Positions 2,766 through 42,282 of a stretch of DNA of 42,462 nt are shown piece after piece. The stretch lies in sequence record NC_073320.1, one strand, 5' to 3'. The notes under the pieces are model-generated. The model worked only from the letters and a program-made list of their open reading frames with translations, did not search any database and was not told where the DNA came from. A program made the translations under genes and the position numbers. Origin of the DNA: Escherichia phage 26. The stretch's first letter is position 1. The number at the start of each line of letters is the position of its first letter.

Positions 2766-2794
2766 ACTATAATAGCTAACTATTCAGGTGTCAA
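2766..2794 (-). promoter_or_regulatory. sigma70-type promoter P3 (TTGACA-17-TATAGT) with AATAG-N4-CTATT dyad in the spacer
   Basis: minus-strand reading TTGACAcctgAATAGttagCTATTATAGT just upstream of SSB-like and polymerase genes. Confidence 0.5.
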
Positions 2795-5577: not shown

Positions 5578-5607
5578 ACTATAATAGCGAACTATTCATT
5601 ATGTCAA
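5578..5607 (-). promoter_or_regulatory. sigma70-type promoter P2 (TTGACA-18-TATAGT) with AATAG-N4-CTATT dyad; divergent from XRE gene
   Basis: minus-strand reading TTGACAtaatgAATAGttcgCTATTATAGTTAGCC; same block as P1 and P3. Confidence 0.5.
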
Positions 5608-36840: not shown

Positions 36841-38817
36841 ATGTCAAGCGGATGTGGTGATGTTGTAAGTCTGGAGTCGATGCAAATCGCACGTAAACAC
36901 CAGATTTTCGAAATCGAGGTTATCACCGGTAAATCCGGCGGTGTTTCCGGTGGTGCGGATATTGATTACGCGACCAACGCAGTTACTGGCCAGACCCAAA
37001 AGACGCTCCCGGCCGTGTTGCGCGACGTTGGGTTTCTTCCTGCTGGCTTTGATTTTTCCACAGGTGGCACCTTATCTATAAATGATAGAAATAAATCAGT
37101 TTTGTGGCCTTCTTCCTCAGGCGGCGATGACCAGTACTACACATGGCAGGGGGTTCTACCTAAAGTTATTCCCGCTTCCAGTTCTCCTAGTGCATCAGGA
37201 GGAGTAGCACCAGGTGCTTGGGTTCAGGTATCGTATTTAGCGTTAAAAACCGATTTAGCCTCTGTTTTAGGGGCTTCCATGATAGGGCTGCCTGCTGGTG
37301 GCTCTCTTGATATGGCCTTAAAATACACGACGCCAGAGCAATTTCTTGCTTCAGCAACTGATATGACTGAAGCCATCCAGATGGCCTTTGATTACGGGGA
37401 CGTAGTAGACTTGTCAGGGTCGAACTATACAATAGCTCGCACGATAAATATTCCGGACGGTCGTGTGCTGCGCATGCAAGGCTCCAACATTACGGCGGCT
37501 ACGGGGGTCACACCCCTATTCTCTTTCTCAGGAAAGAACTTAGGTCTAACAATCATTGGCGGCAGTGGTGTAGTGACAGGGTCAGCTAGTGCCTTTTTGT
37601 ACTGCGAGGGCGCGAGCGACACCCCGGTAAACGCGGACTATGTTAAGCAAGTACGTATTTATGGGGTAAACGTATCTTCTGCTACGTTTGAACGGGCTAT
37701 ACTGTTCGACAAAGCGGTACGTCAAGTGTTTATAGATAGCTGCATGTTCTATACACGCAACGGCATTGAGTCTACTGGTAAATGCGTAGAAGTAATGATT
37801 AATAAATCCATTATTTATGGCGCTACCTCTGATACCGATACATTCGGCGTTAAATTGTCCAGCACGGGAGGTACAAACTTCTACAATGAAGGGTGGCGTC
37901 TAACCGACTGCACAGTTGATAACTTTGCTAATTCAATTGACCTAGCTGATGTGTTTGTATTTACATTCAAGAACGGATATGTGGCTTGTAATGCAACAAC
38001 AGCTTTTGCCGTTACTGTTCGCGGGGTTACCACAACAACGCATTGTCGAGAAATTAACTTTGATGGGGTTATTGGCGGTAAGGTGCGTTTCTTAGATAAT
38101 GCGTCCGGCTCATTGACCATGCATACTCTTATTACAGGAGAGATTACGAACTGTAAACCTGGAACGTGTATAGCTATCGGGGCAAACTTGGCAGGTATTG
38201 ATATCCGCAATATCAAAATCACTTCAAGTCCATCTTGCATACTGGCTTCTGTAGCTAACAACAGTGGTAATATCCATTTTGCAGGCGTTTCTACCGACAG
38301 CACCCTAACCGCGGGCATTATCTTCAACGGAACAAACGGCGGAAACTGTAGCATCTCTGATTTTATATACGCTGGCTCTGGCGAGGCTCTTTCTCTCGCG
38401 CGGGCGGTTCTGCTGTCCAATGTGCCGGTTGTTGGGGCGACGACACCAATTTGGTCTGTGCGTCACGGCTATCAATCTACAACAACGACGGTTACTACAG
38501 GTAATTATATTTCTAGCACTCAATTCACTGCTGCGAAAGGCTCTAAACTACTGTTTAATATTAACATGTCGTACACTGGGGCGGCCGGGTCTAACGGGCA
38601 GTCAATCGGGATAAATGTACCGGCGAATGTATCGCTGCCGAATGGTGCGAAAAGTATGACATTAATACTTCCTGCGGCATCCGGAACAGTTGGATTGACA
38701 CTAGTATGTACTGTTACTGATGATTTTATAAATAATTTATTCAGCGTGACAAATAACACAGGCAACACCTTATCAATACTACCCGGTGCGCACGTTTCAG
38801 TATCGCTATGTAATTAA
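36841..38817 (+). CDS. tailspike / receptor-binding depolymerase with beta-helix
   Basis: 658 aa; N-terminal anchor MSSGCGDVVSLESMQ..; Gly/Ser/Thr/Asn-rich repetitive region typical of right-handed beta-helix. Confidence 0.65.
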   Translation: MSSGCGDVVSLESMQIARKHQIFEIEVITGKSGGVSGGADIDYATNAVTGQTQKTLPAVLRDVGFLPAGFDFSTGGTLSINDRNKSVLWPSSSGGDDQYYTWQGVLPKVIPASSSPSASGGVAPGAWVQVSYLALKTDLASVLGASMIGLPAGGSLDMALKYTTPEQFLASATDMTEAIQMAFDYGDVVDLSGSNYTIARTINIPDGRVLRMQGSNITAATGVTPLFSFSGKNLGLTIIGGSGVVTGSASAFLYCEGASDTPVNADYVKQVRIYGVNVSSATFERAILFDKAVRQVFIDSCMFYTRNGIESTGKCVEVMINKSIIYGATSDTDTFGVKLSSTGGTNFYNEGWRLTDCTVDNFANSIDLADVFVFTFKNGYVACNATTAFAVTVRGVTTTTHCREINFDGVIGGKVRFLDNASGSLTMHTLITGEITNCKPGTCIAIGANLAGIDIRNIKITSSPSCILASVANNSGNIHFAGVSTDSTLTAGIIFNGTNGGNCSISDFIYAGSGEALSLARAVLLSNVPVVGATTPIWSVRHGYQSTTTTVTTGNYISSTQFTAAKGSKLLFNINMSYTGAAGSNGQSIGINVPANVSLPNGAKSMTLILPAASGTVGLTLVCTVTDDFINNLFSVTNNTGNTLSILPGAHVSVSLCN

Positions 38818-38847
38818 AACTAAGGCCCCAAACGGGGCCTTTTCTCT
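38818..38847. terminator. terminator AAGGCCCC-AAAC-GGGGCCTT at end of late arm (likely bidirectional)
   Basis: 8-bp GC stem then TTCTCT; between convergent tailspike (+) and HNH remnant (-). Confidence 0.65.
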
Positions 38848-38979
38848 ACTCTTCGGATAACTTCTCCAGTACAAACGCCAGTTGTGCATTAGCAGCGTCT
38901 CTCTGTTGCCGTAGGCGTATAACCTCCTCTTCGAGTTCCTTGATACGTTTTTGCAATGCGGGAATCGGGGCTATGATGT

Positions 38980-39465
38980 TCACGCGGTTTCTCCGTGTTT
39001 TTCATGAAATCCGTAAGCAGCCTCCGCAGCTTTACGTGCGGCAACAGCTTCGTCAAAATTATCAAACTGTCCTAGATGTATTTTTCTTCTGTCGACTTTT
39101 ATCTATGCCACCCATTTGTTTCTTCTCTTTTCCCGCCATACGCCAAGAGCGCCACTAGTATTGTTTACCCCTATTGATGCGTTGCGGCTATTTCCGGTGT
39201 TGGTAACTTTCCGTAGGTTGCATATTCGGTTATCAGTTCGAATATGATTGATGTGGTCTATCTGTTCCTGTGGCGTAAGTGGGTTATCTGGGTTGCAGAT
39301 ATTCCACGCTAACCGGTGCGCCAGTTATAATTTTCCGTTTACTCGGATACGAATGTACCCATCCCGTGGGCAAAAACATCCTGCTTTCTTTCCGATAAAA
39401 CCCATACGTTTTGTTTCTACCCATGTAAAAATACCGGTTTCTGGGTCGTAAGATATCTTGCTCAT
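38980..39465 (-). pseudogene. HNH-AP2 homing endonuclease gene disrupted by two in-frame stop codons
   Basis: frame from ATG 39465 reads MSKISYDPETGIFTW..GYIRIRVNGKL-TAA-LAHRLAWN..IDHINHIRTDNRICNLR..NKWVA-TAG-IKVDRRKIHLGQFDNFDEAVAARKAAEAAYGF..-TGA; no frameshift, stops at 39325-39327 and 39103-39105. Confidence 0.7.
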
Positions 39466-40886
39466 TTCTTACTCCTACGTTTCATATACTCAAGGAGGAT
39501 ATCCTGCACCTGTTTTTTCTCGTCTGTACGAGCGGCGACAACTTCATCAAGAGTATCTCGGGCTATTATTTTATAAATGAATACAGACCGTTTGTATCCG
39601 GATTGCATCTGCCTTACCGGGCCTATGCGCTCGATAACCTGCAAATAGTGTTCCAGGTTCCACCCCTGACTCATAAAGGCCATGTGATGCCCGCCGTGTT
39701 GTAGCGACAGCCCGTGACCTGCGGACGCTGGGTGTATCAGGAGCATAGGTATTTCACCACGGTTCCACGCTTCCATCTGCTTATTACCCTTAGCCCCTTT
39801 GGCGAACGCCTGTGCTTGCGGGAATCGCTTAAGGATACGCTCCAGTTCGTGCTTAAACTGATATGCCACCAGTAGCGGCGCGCCATGTAACTCCTCAACA
39901 ATGGACTCCAGCGCATCCAGTTTCGTGTCGTGCACTTTCTCCCAGTCTTTTGTTGCTTCGCCGTCTGGCCCTGACACATATACGGCACCAGATGCAATCT
40001 GCAAACACTTCGACGTCTTCGCTGCGGCGTTAGCGGCTTCAACTTCCCCGCTCTCCAGTTCCGCAAATAACTTCTCCTCCATATCTATGTACGCCTGACG
40101 CGCCTTCTTCGGAAGGTCTATTTCAACCGGCACAATAATCGGCGATTCACATCCGAACCACTCGGCGGCGTCAATCGTGAGACTAATGTCCTTCATCTTC
40201 TGGTGAATTTCATTATCCGCCCCCGGGCGGGCATGATACTCCCGTGCCATAGCCGATTTGCCTTTTTGCACCGAGTTAAACCAGCGGTCGGTGAACGCTG
40301 TGTACGAAGAACCGAGGCGCTCGCCTGCGTCGATAAACCAGTTCTGACCCCACAAGTCTTTTAGGCCGTTTGGCGATGGCGTACCAGTCAGGTTGATAAA
40401 ACGCTTAACCTTACCGAACGCAACCTTACTGAGCGCCTTCGCCCTCTTGCTGCCACCTGAACGACTACGGAACGATTTCAGCTTAGTGCTTTCATCCGCA
40501 ACAATAACCGTAAAAGGCCAGTCGTCTTTGCCGTAGTAGTCAATCAGCCACTCGATAACTTCGTAGTTCGTGCACACCACGTTGGCATCGGACTCCAGCG
40601 CCGCGATGCGGCGCTTCTCTGAACCGGTCGCATCTACAACACTCAGGCATGGGAATTGCCATTTCTCTTGTTCTGCGGGCCACGTACCAGACGCAACACG
40701 TAAAGGAGCCAGAATTAACACTCGGTCATCGTCATTAAGTTGCCCATTACGGAACAGTCTGTTGAGAACCCACAACGTTGACCCTGACTTACCACTGCCC
40801 ATCGAAGCCCATATGTTACATCGAGGGTGCCGCAACATGAACGAAGTCATGAGCTTCTGATATTCGCGCCTTTGAAACTTAGACAT
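39462..40886 (-). CDS. SNF2/DEAD-like superfamily 2 helicase
   Basis: Walker A MGSGKS, motif II IVADEST, motif VI QVIERIGPVRQ. Confidence 0.8.
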   Translation of the reverse strand: MSKFQRREYQKLMTSFMLRHPRCNIWASMGSGKSGSTLWVLNRLFRNGQLNDDDRVLILAPLRVASGTWPAEQEKWQFPCLSVVDATGSEKRRIAALESDANVVCTNYEVIEWLIDYYGKDDWPFTVIVADESTKLKSFRSRSGGSKRAKALSKVAFGKVKRFINLTGTPSPNGLKDLWGQNWFIDAGERLGSSYTAFTDRWFNSVQKGKSAMAREYHARPGADNEIHQKMKDISLTIDAAEWFGCESPIIVPVEIDLPKKARQAYIDMEEKLFAELESGEVEAANAAAKTSKCLQIASGAVYVSGPDGEATKDWEKVHDTKLDALESIVEELHGAPLLVAYQFKHELERILKRFPQAQAFAKGAKGNKQMEAWNRGEIPMLLIHPASAGHGLSLQHGGHHMAFMSQGWNLEHYLQVIERIGPVRQMQSGYKRSVFIYKIIARDTLDEVVAARTDEKKQVQDILLEYMKRRSKK

Positions 40887-41562
40887 GATTAGCCTCGTAA
40901 ACTGCTTTTGCGAAACCCCGCGGAGTAAGGCTGCGTATTGTTTTTGTCCCCACCGATTTACCGCCTAATTTATTGTGTTGGTCAGAGTAACCGCCAACCA
41001 CGGCGACACATGATTTAACAGGCATCACAAAACCGTTACCCGCCCAAATACATGTCTTCTTAGGGTACGCGTCCCGCGGTTTTATGTATTCGGGGAACAT
41101 TGGGTGCGTGTCGTCTTCGGGTAAATAGCCGCCGTATTCGTATGGATTGAACGCGTAGTCAGGCTTACGCCATAAAGACGAAAGAACGCTAACAGGGTTC
41201 TCAATCATATAAGGTACGTTGTACTTTTTAGCCAGACGCGCCGCCACTTTGCATGTAATTACGGCCTCTACCTGAAACGTGGGGTTCTTCTTCCGCTTCG
41301 TTTCAAAATGCGCCGCGCCGCTAACGGCTAAATCTGTGCACGGAGGGAACGCAAAAATAATATCCGGCGCAACCCCGAAGTCGAATTTATTGTCAATCCA
41401 AGCGTTTATATAGTGGATGTTTTCGTGTTCAACTTTTGCACCCAATCGTGCGTAGTCTCCGTGGTCGGCGCCATCGTAGTTGAAACAATAGCAAGTATGG
41501 CCTGCTTCCGCCCACGGTTGGGCCATAAGGCCCGAACCGTCAAACAATGACCAGACAATCAT
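40879..41562 (-). CDS. C5-cytosine DNA methyltransferase-like protein (short, no obvious target-recognition domain)
   Basis: motif I-like LFDGSG, motif IV-like FPPCT, motif VI-like ENP; 227 aa. Confidence 0.5.
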   Translation of the reverse strand: MIVWSLFDGSGLMAQPWAEAGHTCYCFNYDGADHGDYARLGAKVEHENIHYINAWIDNKFDFGVAPDIIFAFPPCTDLAVSGAAHFETKRKKNPTFQVEAVITCKVAARLAKKYNVPYMIENPVSVLSSLWRKPDYAFNPYEYGGYLPEDDTHPMFPEYIKPRDAYPKKTCIWAGNGFVMPVKSCVAVVGGYSDQHNKLGGKSVGTKTIRSLTPRGFAKAVYEANHV

Positions 41563-41750
41563 TTCAGCACCAGAACTAACTCTTTACGCCCGAACGCCGT
41601 AACGTTACCGGTTACATCTTCGATAACCAGTTTACCGTTCGACTCGACGTACACCGTATCAACGGCAACAGGACTACGGGTCTTAACGTTGAAAATCATG
41701 TCGCCTGGTACGATGTCACGTGCGGGTTTGCGGTCATATTCGTGTTTCAT
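41559..41750 (-). CDS. hypothetical protein, 63 aa
   Basis: ATGA overlap with methyltransferase-like gene. Confidence 0.5.
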   Translation of the reverse strand: MKHEYDRKPARDIVPGDMIFNVKTRSPVAVDTVYVESNGKLVIEDVTGNVTAFGRKELVLVLK

Positions 41751-41780
41751 TTCTCAATTCCTTATATTGTTGGTGTAAGG

Positions 41781-42068
41781 CTAACTATAATAGTTCGCTA
41801 TTAGGTCGTCAACCTGTTTAAACGAACCGACGACAAAAACATTCGCACCACGTTTCCGGAATCTCTCATGTTCCCGTAGCTGGTGCGGGTCTGGCTTCGT
41901 GTTTTCGTCTTTCTTTATCTCAACGAACCAGATGATGCCGCCGGGGAGAATTACCAGGAGGTCCATGGCGGCTCGCCGACCTTCAAATGCCATCTTGCGA
42001 ACGAGGCCACCAATGGCCTCGAATCGGTATTTTGCGTATTTCTGGATTCGCCCTTCAGGCGTACTCAT
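41781..42068 (-). CDS. VRR-NUC domain nuclease
   Basis: DLLVILPGGIIWFVEIKKDENTKPDPHQLREHERF; start ATG 42068 (track ORF begins at 42077). Confidence 0.65.
   Translation of the reverse strand: MSTPEGRIQKYAKYRFEAIGGLVRKMAFEGRRAAMDLLVILPGGIIWFVEIKKDENTKPDPHQLREHERFRKRGANVFVVGSFKQVDDLIANYYS
41784..41812 (-). promoter_or_regulatory. sigma70-type promoter P1 (TTGACG-17-TATAGT) with dyad, embedded in the 3' coding end of the VRR-NUC gene
   Basis: minus-strand TTGACGacctAATAGcgaaCTATTATAGT-TAG; the TAG is the VRR-NUC stop. Confidence 0.45.
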
Positions 42069-42154
42069 AATACGCACCCCTCACGTTTCGTATGCTCAAT
42101 CCCGCAGCGTGGACAGATTCGACAGTCTTCTTCGTATAGCCAGTAAATTTTCAT
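42065..42154 (-). CDS. possible 29-aa Cys-rich peptide
   Basis: MKIYWLYEEDCRICPRCG..; ATGA overlaps at both ends; very short. Confidence 0.2.
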   Translation of the reverse strand: MKIYWLYEEDCRICPRCGIEHTKREGCVL

Positions 42155-42282
42155 TCCAGCACCCACAGATAAATTGCGATGAACATACCTAATACGGCGA
42201 CAATCATGCCGTATTGGCCTTCGTGACAGTAGACCCCAGCGGCGAATCCCGCCAGTACCGCGATAATCAGTTTACTTAGCAT
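42151..42282 (-). CDS. possible 43-aa membrane peptide
   Basis: MLSKLIIAVLAGFAAGVYC..MIVAVLGMFIAIYLWVLE, two hydrophobic segments; start overlaps polymerase end. Confidence 0.3.
   Translation of the reverse strand: MLSKLIIAVLAGFAAGVYCHEGQYGMIVAVLGMFIAIYLWVLE

What the first reader, a model, noticed from the sequence alone, without database searches (positions are those of the whole stretch)
39462..42068. SNF2 helicase, short C5-methyltransferase-like protein and VRR-NUC nuclease cluster, with a promoter inside coding sequence
The methyltransferase-like protein has motif I/IV/VI-like sequences but at 227 aa appears to lack a target-recognition domain, so it may be a non-canonical DNA-modifying or base-flipping protein rather than a standard methylase. 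Promoter P1 for the downstream genes is embedded in the last 10 codons of the VRR-NUC gene, with its -10 hexamer abutting the stop codon. Together with the SNF2 helicase this cluster is a candidate DNA modification, anti-restriction or repair module.
Basis: partly seen in the sequence, partly recalled or inferred. Interest (0 to 1): 0.45.

Follow-up and report, generated by a model that had tools for sequence, protein, structure and literature searches.

The report
Phage replication genes with small Dcm-like methylase
This is the ordinary, widely conserved tail end of a Kagunavirus/Jerseyvirus-type phage replication operon (junction-cutting nuclease, tiny unknown protein, unusually small cytosine methylase, SNF2 motor protein) with a conserved internal promoter, and every part has close, already annotated or studied relatives.

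Summary
On the minus strand lie VRR-NUC (41781-42068), an unmentioned 63-aa gene (41559-41750), a 227-aa C5-methyltransferase-like gene (40879-41562) and a 474-aa SNF2 ATPase (39462-40886). A TTGACG-17-TATAGT site ends exactly at the VRR-NUC stop codon.

The window is a Guernseyvirinae siphovirus. The cluster is 86-91% identical in DNA to hundreds of annotated phages.

- **VRR-NUC:** it is the orthologue of crystallised saNUC (PDB 4QBN), a dimeric Holliday-junction-resolvase-like nuclease.
- **227-aa protein:** it has a class-I methyltransferase fold closest to DNMT3A/B and bacterial C5-methylases. Cys75 (PPC) and Glu121 (ENP) are invariant, and there is no separate target-recognition domain. 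It falls below Pfam's threshold.
- **Family:** the protein belongs to a very large short family found in 1520 phage records. It is 56% identical to the BASEL "Dcm-like" protein, whose residue numbering matches phage K42 Dcm. That enzyme was shown by LC-MS to make 5mC and to trigger retron Ec86. It is therefore most likely a real methylase, not a non-methylating base-flipper.
- **Linkage:** in most other phages the gene occurs without SNF2 or VRR-NUC, often beside Dam. The three genes are therefore not an obligate module.
- **Phenotype in relatives:** Kagunavirus isolates are highly sensitive to restriction-modification systems.
- **Promoter:** the site is conserved across relatives, but its function is unproven.

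Verdict: ordinary and largely already known.

The parts
41781..42068 (-). VRR-NUC nuclease gene (95 aa from the ATG; the longest ORF starts at a GTG at 42077). PD-(D/E)XK residues are D36, E50, K52 and Q63.
   Evidence: phmmer hit to PDB 4QBN (saNUC of Salmonella phage SETP3), E 1.8e-49 over residues 6-97. saNUC is dimeric, HJ-resolvase-like and cleaves four-way junctions only weakly. PHROG 93 (endonuclease) at 2.5e-29. No Pfam hit at E<=0.1.
41784..41812 (-). Sigma-70-type promoter-like site TTGACG-17-TATAGT (10/12) inside the last codons of VRR-NUC. The -10 hexamer abuts the TAG stop.
   Evidence: Found by the scan. Kept in 35/35 in-register unique relatives as TTGACG, TTGATA, TTGATG or TTGACA with TATAGT or TATATT. 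It stays at the VRR-NUC 3' end as TTGACA-17-TATAGT (11/12), or TTGACG-17-TATAGT (10/12) in one locus, when an extra gene is inserted downstream. Two intergenic near-consensus sites on the same strand share the same -10 hexamer. The transcription start has not been tested.
41559..41750 (-). 63-aa protein of unknown function with its own AAGGA ribosome-binding site. Its stop overlaps the methylase start (ATGA).
   Evidence: PHROG 4879 (unknown function) at 5e-46. 92-98% identical in Guernseyvirinae loci and absent from the other 70 loci that carry the methylase.
40879..41562 (-). 227-aa short Dcm-like DNA (cytosine-5) methyltransferase. Motif I is FDGSG (7-11), motif IV is PPC (catalytic Cys75), motif VI is ENP (Glu121), and K168/K169 stand in place of QxRxR. 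There is no TRD domain.
39462..40886 (-). 474-aa SNF2-family ATPase core (Walker A GSGKS, DEST box) with no accessory domains. It overlaps the methylase stop by 8 nt.
   Evidence: PF00176 at 42.6 bits, above the 24.9 cutoff. Helicase_C at 20.0 bits, below the 23.5 cutoff. PHROG 62 at 1.5e-166. PDB CHD1L aligns over residues 22-466, E 1.5e-13.
38983..39465 (-). HNH homing-endonuclease pseudogene immediately downstream of SNF2. It is in frame but has two premature stop codons.
   Evidence: tblastn against the intact 161-aa HNH of locus L011 gives 93% identity with no gaps. Stops replace Glu codons at 39327-39325 and 39105-39103. The first 46 aa hit PHROG 99 (HNH endonuclease).
38822..38841 (-). 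GC-rich hairpin followed by a T-run at the convergence point of the leftward operon and the tailspike gene. It is the likely end of the transcription unit.
   Evidence: Terminator-like site AAGGCCCCGTTTGGGGCCTT + AGTTTTAATT. This is a consensus match only and has not been tested.

Best explanation
The region is the promoter-distal part of the leftward replication/recombination operon of a Guernseyvirinae siphovirus. The gene order is DNA polymerase A, small ORFs, VRR-NUC, a 63-aa protein, a short Dcm-like methylase, an SNF2 ATPase, an HNH pseudogene, a small ORF and a terminator.

- **VRR-NUC** is a dimeric PD-(D/E)XK nuclease that cuts branched or four-way DNA made during recombination-dependent replication and packaging. 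This is shown for its orthologue saNUC.
- **SNF2** is a bare two-lobe DNA translocase that most likely remodels forks or branch-migrates. This is inferred.
- **The 227-aa protein** is a minimal SAM-dependent DNA cytosine-5 methyltransferase. Cys75 attacks C6 of a flipped cytosine, Glu121 protonates N3, and K168/K169 take the place of the canonical motif VIII arginines. It has only a loop-sized recognition element, like DNMT3. It is an independently mobile 'orphan' methylase gene that marks phage (and host) DNA with 5mC. Methyl transfer has been shown for a family member. The target sequence and the benefit to the phage are inferred or unknown.
- **The TTGACG-17-TATAGT site** in the last codons of VRR-NUC most likely acts as an internal sigma-70 promoter that feeds transcription of the 63-aa gene, the methylase and SNF2. 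This is inferred from conservation.
For: Context:
- The cluster is 86-91% identical in DNA to 453 phage records with the same gene order.

VRR-NUC and SNF2:
- VRR-NUC matches PDB 4QBN at E 1.8e-49. saNUC is dimeric and HJ-resolvase-like.
- SNF2 passes PF00176 and aligns over its full length to the CHD1L ATPase.

Methylase fold and residues:
- The AF2 model has the full seven-strand class-I fold, with FDGSG after beta1, PPC after beta4 and ENP at the end of beta5.
- C75, E121 and P123 are invariant. N122, K168, T170, R210 and G216 are at least 90% conserved across 75 members at 33-62% identity.

Family:
- The family holds 7172 clusters at 90% identity and 2015 representatives at 50% identity, nearly all 205-260 aa.
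- The protein is 56% identical (E 9e-95) to bas07_0054. That protein's length (711 bp) and residues C82, E128, K175 and K176 equal those reported for K42 Dcm. K42 Dcm raised 5mC in msDNA by LC-MS unless those residues were mutated.
- The gene sits beside Dam methylases in Dhillonvirus and in lambdoid nin regions. One family member is fused to a D12 Dam domain.

Promoter:
- Conservation is shown. Two intergenic sites on the same strand share the TATAGT -10 hexamer. The -10 hexamer ends 33 nt before the ATG of the 63-aa gene.
Against: - The protein fails the Pfam PF00145 threshold. It has no NCBIfam hit and no PDB sequence hit.
- Canonical QxRxR (motif VIII) and GNxV (motif X) were not found.
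- Burke et al. found that phage C5-MTs with disrupted motifs VIII-X were often inactive in E. coli.
- I did not see the K42 Dcm sequence itself. Identity with the family is inferred from gene length, residue numbering and the close relationship of K42 to BASEL Hanrivervirus phages.
- The K42 work is a preprint. Its CCWGG specificity was assumed by analogy rather than mapped.
- Kagunavirus isolates are highly RM-sensitive. BASEL found no link between methylase genes and restriction resistance. The benefit of the methylase is therefore unclear.
- Promoter conservation is confounded by coding constraint, because some nearby synonymous sites are equally invariant. No transcription-start data exist.
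Confidence: 0.7

Rival explanations
1. The 227-aa protein is not a methylase. It would be a degenerate or neomorphic C5-MTase-like protein: a base-flipping DNA binder, an enzyme that forms a covalent cytosine adduct without methyl transfer, or one using another cofactor such as carboxy-SAM.
For: - It scores below the Pfam threshold. Only 2 of 75 family members hit PF00145 at E<0.01.
- It has no TRD domain, no QxRxR and no recognisable motif X.
- Phage C5-MTs lacking motifs VIII-X were often inactive in E. coli.
Against: - A family member produced 5mC, and this depended on the Cys, Glu and Lys-Lys residues that are conserved here.
- SAM-binding positions are kept: motif I, the polar or acidic residue at the end of beta2, and the Asp after beta3.
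- No Cx-SAM synthase or other modification gene is annotated in the close relative RP180.
- The gene is associated with, and in one case fused to, Dam DNA methylases.
Confidence: 0.08
2. VRR-NUC, the methylase and SNF2 form one dedicated functional module for DNA modification, anti-restriction or repair. For example, it could be a two-component DNMT5-like machine in which the SNF2 ATPase targets or drives the TRD-less methylase.
For: - The methylase and SNF2 genes overlap by 8 nt.
- In both phage groups that have this SNF2 (Guernseyvirinae and Dhillonvirus), the methylase is directly adjacent to it, upstream in one group and downstream in the other.
Against: - In 56 of 82 loci no SNF2 homologue, and in 58 of 82 no VRR-NUC homologue, was found within the up to 5 kb of flanking DNA held on each side. 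These include Drexlerviridae, lambdoid prophages and large myoviruses.
- K42 Dcm worked when expressed alone in E. coli.
- The VRR-NUC orthologue is a junction nuclease.
- Relatives are highly RM-sensitive.
- PADLOC gives only generic SNF2 similarity and nothing for the other proteins.
Confidence: 0.1
3. The promoter-like site is not a promoter. It would be a by-product of a conserved C-terminal peptide (KQVDDLIANYYS) and AT-rich codon choice, and the downstream genes would be transcribed only by read-through from upstream promoters.
For: - A single 10/12 match is within chance expectation.
- The site lies entirely in coding sequence.
- Some neighbouring synonymous positions with no promoter role are equally invariant, for example Val GTT 35/35 and Phe TTT 35/35.
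Against: - Both hexamers stay at 4/6 or better and 5/6 at an exact 17-nt spacing even where the peptide differs (DDLIANYYS versus DKLIEHYYI).
- The site improves to TTGACA in other variants.
- All synonymous positions inside the hexamers are fixed: Val GTT 34/34, Tyr TAT 35/35, Ser AGT 24/24 and Ile ATT 11/11.
- It has the same TATAGT -10 hexamer as two intergenic near-consensus sites on the same strand.
Confidence: 0.3
4. The methylase is active, but its selected role is not protection from restriction. It might counter other host systems, tune phage replication, packaging or gene expression, or simply hitch-hike as a mobile orphan gene that is even a liability because it triggers retron Ec86.
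For: - Kagunavirus isolates are highly RM-sensitive.
- There is no simple link between methylase genes and restriction resistance in Drexlerviridae.
- The family member triggers retron Ec86 defence.
- The gene moves between unrelated phage backbones and plasmids.
Against: - The RM systems tested in BASEL cover only a few specificities.
- Strong purifying selection acts on catalytic residues across thousands of phages. This implies a benefit, and protection of a specific site is the classical one.
- CCWGG is not avoided in this genome: 86 sites against 58 +/- 6 expected.
Confidence: 0.3

Closest known systems
Phage K42 / BASEL 'Dcm-like C5 cytosine methyltransferase' (Drexlerviridae, e.g. JakobBernoulli bas07_0054, 236 aa), the trigger of retron Ec86
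   Same: It is 56% identical over the full length (E 9e-95) and has the same short architecture. C82, E128, K175 and K176 there equal C75, E121, K168 and K169 here, and the CFNYD motif II variant is shared. The K42 authors also found DNMT3A to be the structural neighbour.
   Different: It sits on a different phage backbone with different neighbours, with no SNF2 or VRR-NUC next to it in the 1.5-kb flanks examined. The activity and target site of the window protein itself are untested. Even for K42, the target site was inferred rather than mapped.
Canonical bacterial DNA C5-methyltransferases (Pfam PF00145; M.HhaI, M.HaeIII, E. coli Dcm)
   Same: It shares the class-I fold. Motif I, motif IV (PC with the catalytic Cys) and motif VI (ENV-like) sit at the same topological positions. 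A C-terminal RSLTPRGFAKAV resembles motif IX, RKLHPRECARVM in HhaI.
   Different: It is about 100 residues shorter and has no TRD small domain. QxRxR is replaced by K-K-T, and no GNxV motif X was found. It is not recognised at Pfam's threshold, and profile-profile comparison beyond motifs I-IV is not significant.
DNMT3A/DNMT3B catalytic domain
   Different: Identity is only 13-16% and TM-scores are about 0.4. DNMT3 enzymes keep motifs VIII-X, work as DNMT3L-assisted oligomers and carry chromatin-reading domains.
saNUC, the VRR-Nuc protein of Salmonella phage SETP3 (PDB 4QBN; Pennell et al. 2014)
   Same: It is the orthologue (E 1.8e-49, same length). The catalytic residues D, E-x-K and Q are conserved, and the gene sits in the same position in a Jerseyvirus.
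   Different: The window protein reads AAMD where saNUC has GAPD before the catalytic Asp. saNUC itself showed only weak, poorly structure-selective cleavage in vitro.
SNF2/Rad54-like ATPase cores (Sulfolobus 1Z63, CHD1L) and defence-system SNF2 proteins (DrmD, ZorD, DpdE)
   Same: It has the two RecA-like lobes with the SNF2 motifs.
   Different: It has no accessory domains. Scores lie far below the equivalog cutoffs for DrmD and ZorD (31 against 950 bits). It sits in a phage replication operon, not in a defence island.

Membership tests
DNA (cytosine-5) methyltransferase, Pfam PF00145 | Score at or above the curated Pfam gathering threshold | tested here: not met
   15.3 bits against a cutoff of 22, with only residues 3-101 matched. 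Only 2 of 75 diverse family members reach E<0.01. No NCBIfam model hits.
DNA (cytosine-5) methyltransferase, Pfam PF00145 | Class-I SAM-methyltransferase fold with C5-MTases as nearest structural neighbours | tested here: met
DNA (cytosine-5) methyltransferase, Pfam PF00145 | Motif I (FxGxG) after beta1, and an acidic or polar residue at the end of beta2 for SAM binding | tested here: met
   FDGSG at residues 7-11. The wider family consensus is L[FY]Dx[TS]G. Position 28 is Asp in 71 of 75 members and Asn in this subfamily, including the homologue of the characterised enzyme.
DNA (cytosine-5) methyltransferase, Pfam PF00145 | Motif IV Pro-Cys with the catalytic cysteine after beta4 | tested here: met
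   FPPCTDLAVSG aligns to HhaI GFPCQAFSISG. Cys75 is invariant in 75 of 75 members.
DNA (cytosine-5) methyltransferase, Pfam PF00145 | Motif VI ENV with the catalytic Glu at the end of beta5 | tested here: met
   The motif is ENP at residues 121-123. E121 and P123 are invariant, and N122 is present in 73 of 75 members.
DNA (cytosine-5) methyltransferase, Pfam PF00145 | Motif VIII QxRxR | tested here: not met
   Strand beta7 reads P-K168-K169-T170-C-I-W. K168 and T170 are about 99% conserved and there are no arginines. The K42 authors treat the equivalent K175 and K176 as substrate-binding residues.
DNA (cytosine-5) methyltransferase, Pfam PF00145 | Separate target-recognition domain between motifs VIII and IX | tested here: not met
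   Only about 35 residues (176-209) lie there, forming a loop and two short helices with no beta structure. Nearly all family members are 205-260 aa long.
DNA (cytosine-5) methyltransferase, Pfam PF00145 | Motifs IX (RxLTxRE) and X (GNxVP) | tested here: inconclusive
   KLGGKS..TKTIRSLTPRGFAKAV resembles HhaI KTGGYLVNGKTRKLHPRECARVM (motif IX), and the chain ends 7 residues later. No GNxV was seen. The hhalign comparison is not significant (probability 1.4%), and model coordinates could not be inspected.
DNA (cytosine-5) methyltransferase, Pfam PF00145 | Transfers a methyl group to C5 of cytosine in DNA | not testable with these tools
   Shown by LC-MS only for the family member K42 Dcm, in a preprint.
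Short phage 'Dcm-like' family (PHROG 757; BASEL Dcm-like / K42 Dcm) | Full-length similarity, a length of about 225-250 aa, and conserved C, E and KK residues | tested here: met
   PHROG 757 at 1.5e-85 over residues 1-226. 56% identity and E 9e-95 to bas07_0054, with C82, E128, K175 and K176 aligned to C75, E121, K168 and K169.
VRR-NUC (virus-type replication-repair nuclease) | Homology to characterised VRR-Nuc proteins, and the PD-(D/E)XK residues D, ExK and the family-specific Gln | tested here: met
   PDB 4QBN at E 1.8e-49 and 4QBO at 3.4e-6. D36, E50, K52 and Q63 align. No Pfam family reached E<=0.1 for this protein.
VRR-NUC (virus-type replication-repair nuclease) | Dimeric, and cleaves four-way junctions | not testable with these tools
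   Reported for the orthologue saNUC: a dimer by AUC and in the crystal, with weak HJ cleavage.
SNF2 family ATPase | SNF2-related N-lobe at or above the Pfam threshold, plus a helicase C-lobe | tested here: met
   PF00176 at 42.6 bits against a cutoff of 24.9. Helicase_C at 20.0 bits against 23.5, just below threshold. The CHD1L ATPase aligns over residues 22-466.
Sigma-70 promoter | -35 and -10 hexamers at 16-18 nt spacing, suitably placed before a gene | tested here: met
   TTGACG-17-TATAGT, a 10/12 match, ending 33 nt before the ATG of the 63-aa gene. Conserved in relatives.
Sigma-70 promoter | Initiates transcription | not testable with these tools
   No transcription-start data were found. 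The K1B4 transcriptome paper does not mention promoters.

The most novel reading that the evidence does not exclude
The short Dcm-like enzyme may not be a CCWGG-type site-specific methylase. It could instead be a minimal C5-methyltransferase of low specificity or structure specificity, acting on hairpins or replication intermediates. In the SNF2-bearing phages (Guernseyvirinae, Dhillonvirus) it could be delivered or driven by the adjacent SNF2 ATPase, making a split prokaryotic-virus analogue of DNMT5. This would explain how a 227-aa protein without a TRD or motif X finds its targets. It would also explain why K42 Dcm methylated retron msDNA that host Dcm apparently left largely unmethylated in a dcm+ strain. 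That last point is my inference.
Probability: 0.07. Interest if true: 0.65.

Novelty: already known. Interest (0 to 1): 0.2.

Why it matters
Little changes for phage biology. The cluster is a standard, heavily sampled piece of Guernseyvirinae genomes, and each protein has an annotated or studied close relative.

The residual value is practical:
- The 227-aa protein belongs to a huge family (1520 phage records, 269 plasmids) that curated HMM libraries miss or under-score. Many records therefore call it 'hypothetical'.
- It is probably among the smallest active DNA C5-methylases. Its target sequence and its benefit to the phage are still not properly mapped.
- Because a family member triggers retron Ec86, carrying this gene predicts sensitivity of such phages to that defence. 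That is relevant when choosing therapeutic Kagunavirus or Jerseyvirus phages.

Tried and rejected
**Sequence-level assignment of the 227-aa protein.**
- Pfam was sub-threshold, NCBIfam gave nothing, and PDB phmmer and profile searches gave nothing.
- hhalign against M.HhaI alone aligned only motifs I-IV. Against an HhaI-like profile it was not significant. The motif VII-X mapping therefore rests on manual comparison and the AF2 secondary structure.

**The 63-aa protein as a missing beta-subunit (as in M.AquI or M.EcoHK31I).** Rejected. It is confined to Guernseyvirinae, while the methylase occurs in many other backbones, and it has no methylase motif.

**An obligate SNF2 / methylase / VRR-NUC module.** Rejected as a general rule by neighbourhood analysis of 82 loci.

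**A hypermodification pathway (TET, glycosyltransferase or Cx-SAM).** No such genes are annotated in the whole genome of the close relative RP180.

**Defence-system membership.** PADLOC gave only generic SNF2 similarity.

**Domain fusions as functional hints.** There was one Dam fusion and one HNH fusion; eight other long members had no extra Pfam domain.

**Literature.** Searches on Guernseyvirinae, Kagunavirus and Jerseyvirus methylation, on the VRR-NUC + SNF2 + cytosine combination, and on phage MTase specificity found no methylome or restriction-digest data for this phage group.

**CCWGG frequency.** It is over-represented (86 against 58 +/- 6). This is compatible with protection, but equally with host-like oligonucleotide bias, so I do not use it as evidence.

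Full report
**What is there**

The window is a Guernseyvirinae siphovirus. The 2.6-kb region is 90.7% identical to Kagunavirus LM08P2 and 86-89% identical to many Kagunavirus and Jerseyvirus records. In all, 453 phage records match.

All genes of the finding lie on the minus strand:
- VRR-NUC, 41781..42068. This is 95 aa from the ATG, which has a GAGGGG Shine-Dalgarno. The longest ORF starts at a GTG at 42077.
- The 227-aa methyltransferase-like gene, 40879..41562.
- A 474-aa SNF2 gene, 39462..40886.

The 63-aa gene and the methylase gene overlap by 4 nt. The methylase and SNF2 genes overlap by 8 nt.

Annotated relatives show the same order inside a long leftward operon. The order is helicase-primase, exonuclease, DNA polymerase A, VRR-NUC, (the 63-aa gene), methylase, SNF2, a variable toprim or HNH gene, and a small ORF. 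The operon converges on the tailspike gene.

**VRR-NUC and SNF2**

- The nuclease matches PDB 4QBN at E 1.8e-49 over residues 6-97.
- 4QBN is saNUC from Salmonella Enteritidis typing phage 3, a Jerseyvirus. Pennell et al. (PMC4103454) showed that saNUC and two other standalone VRR-Nuc proteins resemble Holliday-junction resolvases and are dimers. They make symmetric cuts in four-way junctions, although saNUC was weak and poorly selective in vitro.
- The catalytic residues D36, E50, K52 and Q63 are conserved here.
- Pfam itself gave no hit for this protein.
- The SNF2 protein passes PF00176 (42.6 bits against a 24.9 cutoff) and aligns to the CHD1L ATPase over residues 22-466. It is a bare ATPase core.
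- PADLOC and NCBIfam give only generic SNF2 similarity to DpdE, ZorD and DrmD, far below the family cutoffs.

**The 227-aa protein: fold and motifs**

- Sequence libraries barely see it. PF00145 scores 15.3 bits against a cutoff of 22, and only residues 3-101 match.
- NCBIfam gives no hit. PDB sequence and profile searches give no meaningful hit.
- Among 75 diverse family members, only 2 reach E<0.01 against PF00145.
- PHROG 757 ('DNA methyltransferase') matches at 1.5e-85.
- An AlphaFold2 model (pLDDT 86.5, pTM 0.87) has the seven strands of a class-I methyltransferase. About 50 residues follow beta7 and contain only short helices.
- Generic Rossmann or methyltransferase folds score 9.7 or less.
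- The Foldseek top five hits are DNMT3A/B at E about 1e-5, with modest TM-scores of about 0.4.

The motifs sit where they should:
- FDGSG lies after beta1.
- PPC lies after beta4. FPPCTDLAVSG aligns to HhaI GFPCQAFSISG.
- ENP lies at the end of beta5.

Conservation across 75 members that are 33-62% identical to the window protein:
- C75, E121, P123, P140, Y166, W173 and P181 are invariant.
- N122, K168, T170, R210, S211, P214, G216 and A220 are at least 90% conserved.

Canonical features that are missing or changed:
- There is no TRD domain.
- QxRxR is replaced by K168-K169-T170.
- No GNxV motif X was found.
- The C-terminal KLGGKS..TKTIRSLTPRGFAKAV resembles HhaI motif IX (KTGGYLVNGKTRKLHPRECARVM). 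Profile-profile alignment is not significant, so this mapping is an inference.
- My recalled M.HhaI sequence was verified as 100% identical to a 327-aa PF00145 protein in the database.

**The family and its experimental anchor**

- The family is very large and uniformly short. It has 7172 clusters at 90% identity. It has 2015 representatives at 50% identity with E<=1e-3, nearly all 205-260 aa long.
- Homologues are in 1520 phage records, covering phages of Escherichia, Klebsiella, Salmonella, Campylobacter, Vibrio and others.
- Homologues are also in 269 plasmids.
- BASEL phages annotate it as 'Dcm-like C5 cytosine methyltransferase'.
- The JakobBernoulli copy (bas07_0054, 711 bp, 236 aa) is 56% identical to the window protein over its full length (E 9e-95). 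Its C82, E128, K175 and K176 align to C75, E121, K168 and K169.
- Those four residues and the 711-bp length are exactly what a preprint on retron Ec86 reports for the 'Dcm' of phage K42. K42 is a KarlJaspers-like member of Drexlerviridae (10.1101/2023.08.16.553469).

The preprint reports the following:
- Escape mutants map to the dcm gene.
- Expressing Dcm is toxic only when the retron is present.
- LC-MS shows high 5mC in msDNA with wild-type Dcm. Levels are low with the C82A/E128A/K175A/K176A mutant or with empty vector.
- 34 of 35 Ec86-sensitive phages encode the gene.

I did not see the K42 sequence itself, so membership is inferred from these matches. The CCWGG target was assumed by analogy with host Dcm. 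It was supported only by msDNA stem-loop mutants, not by mapping.

Overall, the family is best read as genuinely active minimal C5-methylases. Their observation of an atypical, TRD-less architecture is nevertheless confirmed.

**Is the cluster a functional module?**

I compared 82 loci that carry the methylase gene.
- Only Guernseyvirinae have the order VRR-NUC, 63-aa gene, methylase, SNF2.
- Dhillonvirus has polymerase, VRR-NUC, SNF2, methylase and, a few genes further on, a Dam methylase.
- No SNF2 homologue (56 of 82 loci) or VRR-NUC homologue (58 of 82) was found within up to 5 kb in Tunavirus and other Drexlerviridae, large myoviruses and other contigs.
- The same holds for lambdoid prophages, where the gene lies in the nin region beside Dam, NinG, RusA and Q.
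- The 63-aa protein is restricted to Guernseyvirinae, so it is not a methylase subunit.
- One family member is fused to a D12 Dam domain.

The gene thus behaves as an independently mobile orphan methylase that travels with other DNA methylases. It is not an obligate partner of SNF2 or VRR-NUC. The repeated adjacency to SNF2 in the two SNF2-bearing groups is noted but unexplained.

- The whole-genome annotation of the close relative RP180 shows no other modification genes.
- Kagunavirus isolates 'display a high sensitivity to RM systems' (PMC11990801).
- For Drexlerviridae, no simple link between methylase genes and restriction resistance was found (PMC8594841).
- Burke et al. (PMC8256090) found that phage C5-MTs with disrupted motifs VIII-X were often inactive in E. 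coli. This is a caution against assuming activity from the catalytic cysteine alone.

**The promoter**

- TTGACG-17-TATAGT occupies 41812..41784. The -10 hexamer abuts the TAG stop codon and ends 33 nt before the ATG of the 63-aa gene.
- One such match is not statistically unusual.
- Among 48 unique VRR-NUC 3' ends, all 35 that align in register keep both hexamers at 17-nt spacing. The variants are TTGACG, TTGATA, TTGATG or TTGACA with TATAGT or TATATT. This holds even though the encoded peptide differs between Kagunavirus-type and Jerseyvirus-type sequences.
- Synonymous positions inside the hexamers are fixed: Val GTT 34/34, Tyr TAT 35/35, Ser AGT 24/24 and Ile ATT 11/11.
- Several neighbouring codons vary freely. 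A few others are equally invariant, so this evidence is suggestive only.
- In eight loci an extra gene separates VRR-NUC from the 63-aa gene. There the element stays at the VRR-NUC 3' end. It is TTGACA-17-TATAGT (11/12) in seven loci and TTGACG-17-TATAGT (10/12) in one.
- Two further TTGACA-17/18-TATAGT sites lie on the same strand, at 2794..2766 and 5607..5578. By their position relative to the ORFs listed, both are intergenic and directly upstream of ORFs.
- I consider a real internal promoter likely (about 0.7). It is unproven, and unremarkable for a compact phage genome.

**Verdict**

- The cluster is ordinary and essentially already known.
- The only open questions are the target specificity and biological payoff of the short Dcm-like family, and how so small an enzyme recognises DNA.

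Noticed in passing
window 38983-39465 (-): An HNH homing-endonuclease gene lies directly downstream of SNF2, with its start overlapping the SNF2 stop. It is 93% identical, without gaps, to an intact 161-aa HNH in a relative. It carries two in-frame stop codons that replace Glu codons (39327-39325 and 39105-39103), so it is a recent pseudogene or a pair of sequencing errors. Relatives have an intact HNH, a toprim-domain gene or nothing at this position, which makes it an insertion hot spot.
   Followed up: partly
window 2766-2794 (-) and 5578-5607 (-): Two near-consensus sigma-70 sites, TTGACA-17-TATAGT and TTGACA-18-TATAGT (11/12 each), lie in intergenic positions just upstream of minus-strand ORFs starting at 2697 and 5546. 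They share the TATAGT -10 hexamer with the site in VRR-NUC. The window has 11 sites at 10/12 or better against 6.1 +/- 2.2 expected.
   Followed up: partly
L008, L009, L108, L116, L123, L143, L144 (about 350 nt upstream of the 63-aa gene): Some relatives carry an extra 84-aa gene between VRR-NUC and the 63-aa gene. It ends in a GGCCCTTCGGGGCC hairpin just before the ribosome-binding site of the 63-aa gene. Its function is unknown.
   Followed up: no
L054 and about 20 similar prophage loci; L038-type Dhillonvirus loci: In lambdoid prophage nin regions the short Dcm-like gene is preceded by one or two Dam-type (NPPY) adenine methylase genes and an unknown protein of about 165 aa. It is followed by NinG, RusA and Q. 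Dhillonvirus also pairs it with Dam. Methylase genes therefore cluster together.
   Followed up: partly
whole window: CCWGG occurs 86 times against 58 +/- 6.3 expected from dinucleotide-preserving shuffles, and 0 of 100 shuffles reach 86. The Dcm/EcoRII site is over-represented rather than avoided. The cause was not resolved and could be host-like oligonucleotide bias or protection by methylation.
   Followed up: no
window 42151-42282 (-): A 43-aa strongly hydrophobic ORF (MLSKLIIAVLAGFAAGVYCHEGQYGMIVAVLGMFIAIYLWVLE) lies between the end of the DNA polymerase gene and VRR-NUC and overlaps the polymerase stop. It could be a small membrane protein inside the replication operon.
   Followed up: no
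window 38822-38841 and 38846-38983 (-): The operon ends with a 45-aa coiled-coil-like ORF. A GC-rich hairpin plus T-run sits in the 4-nt-to-28-nt gap before the convergent tailspike gene (36841-38817, +). This may be a shared or bidirectional terminator.
   Followed up: no
plasmid hits H27-H34 (E. coli, Salmonella and Shigella plasmids of 86-96 kb): Homologues at 37-38% identity, annotated as 'hypothetical protein', sit on about 90-kb enterobacterial plasmids, possibly phage-plasmids. More distant copies named 'DNA cytosine methyltransferase' are on Pseudomonas and large Acinetobacter plasmids.
   Followed up: no
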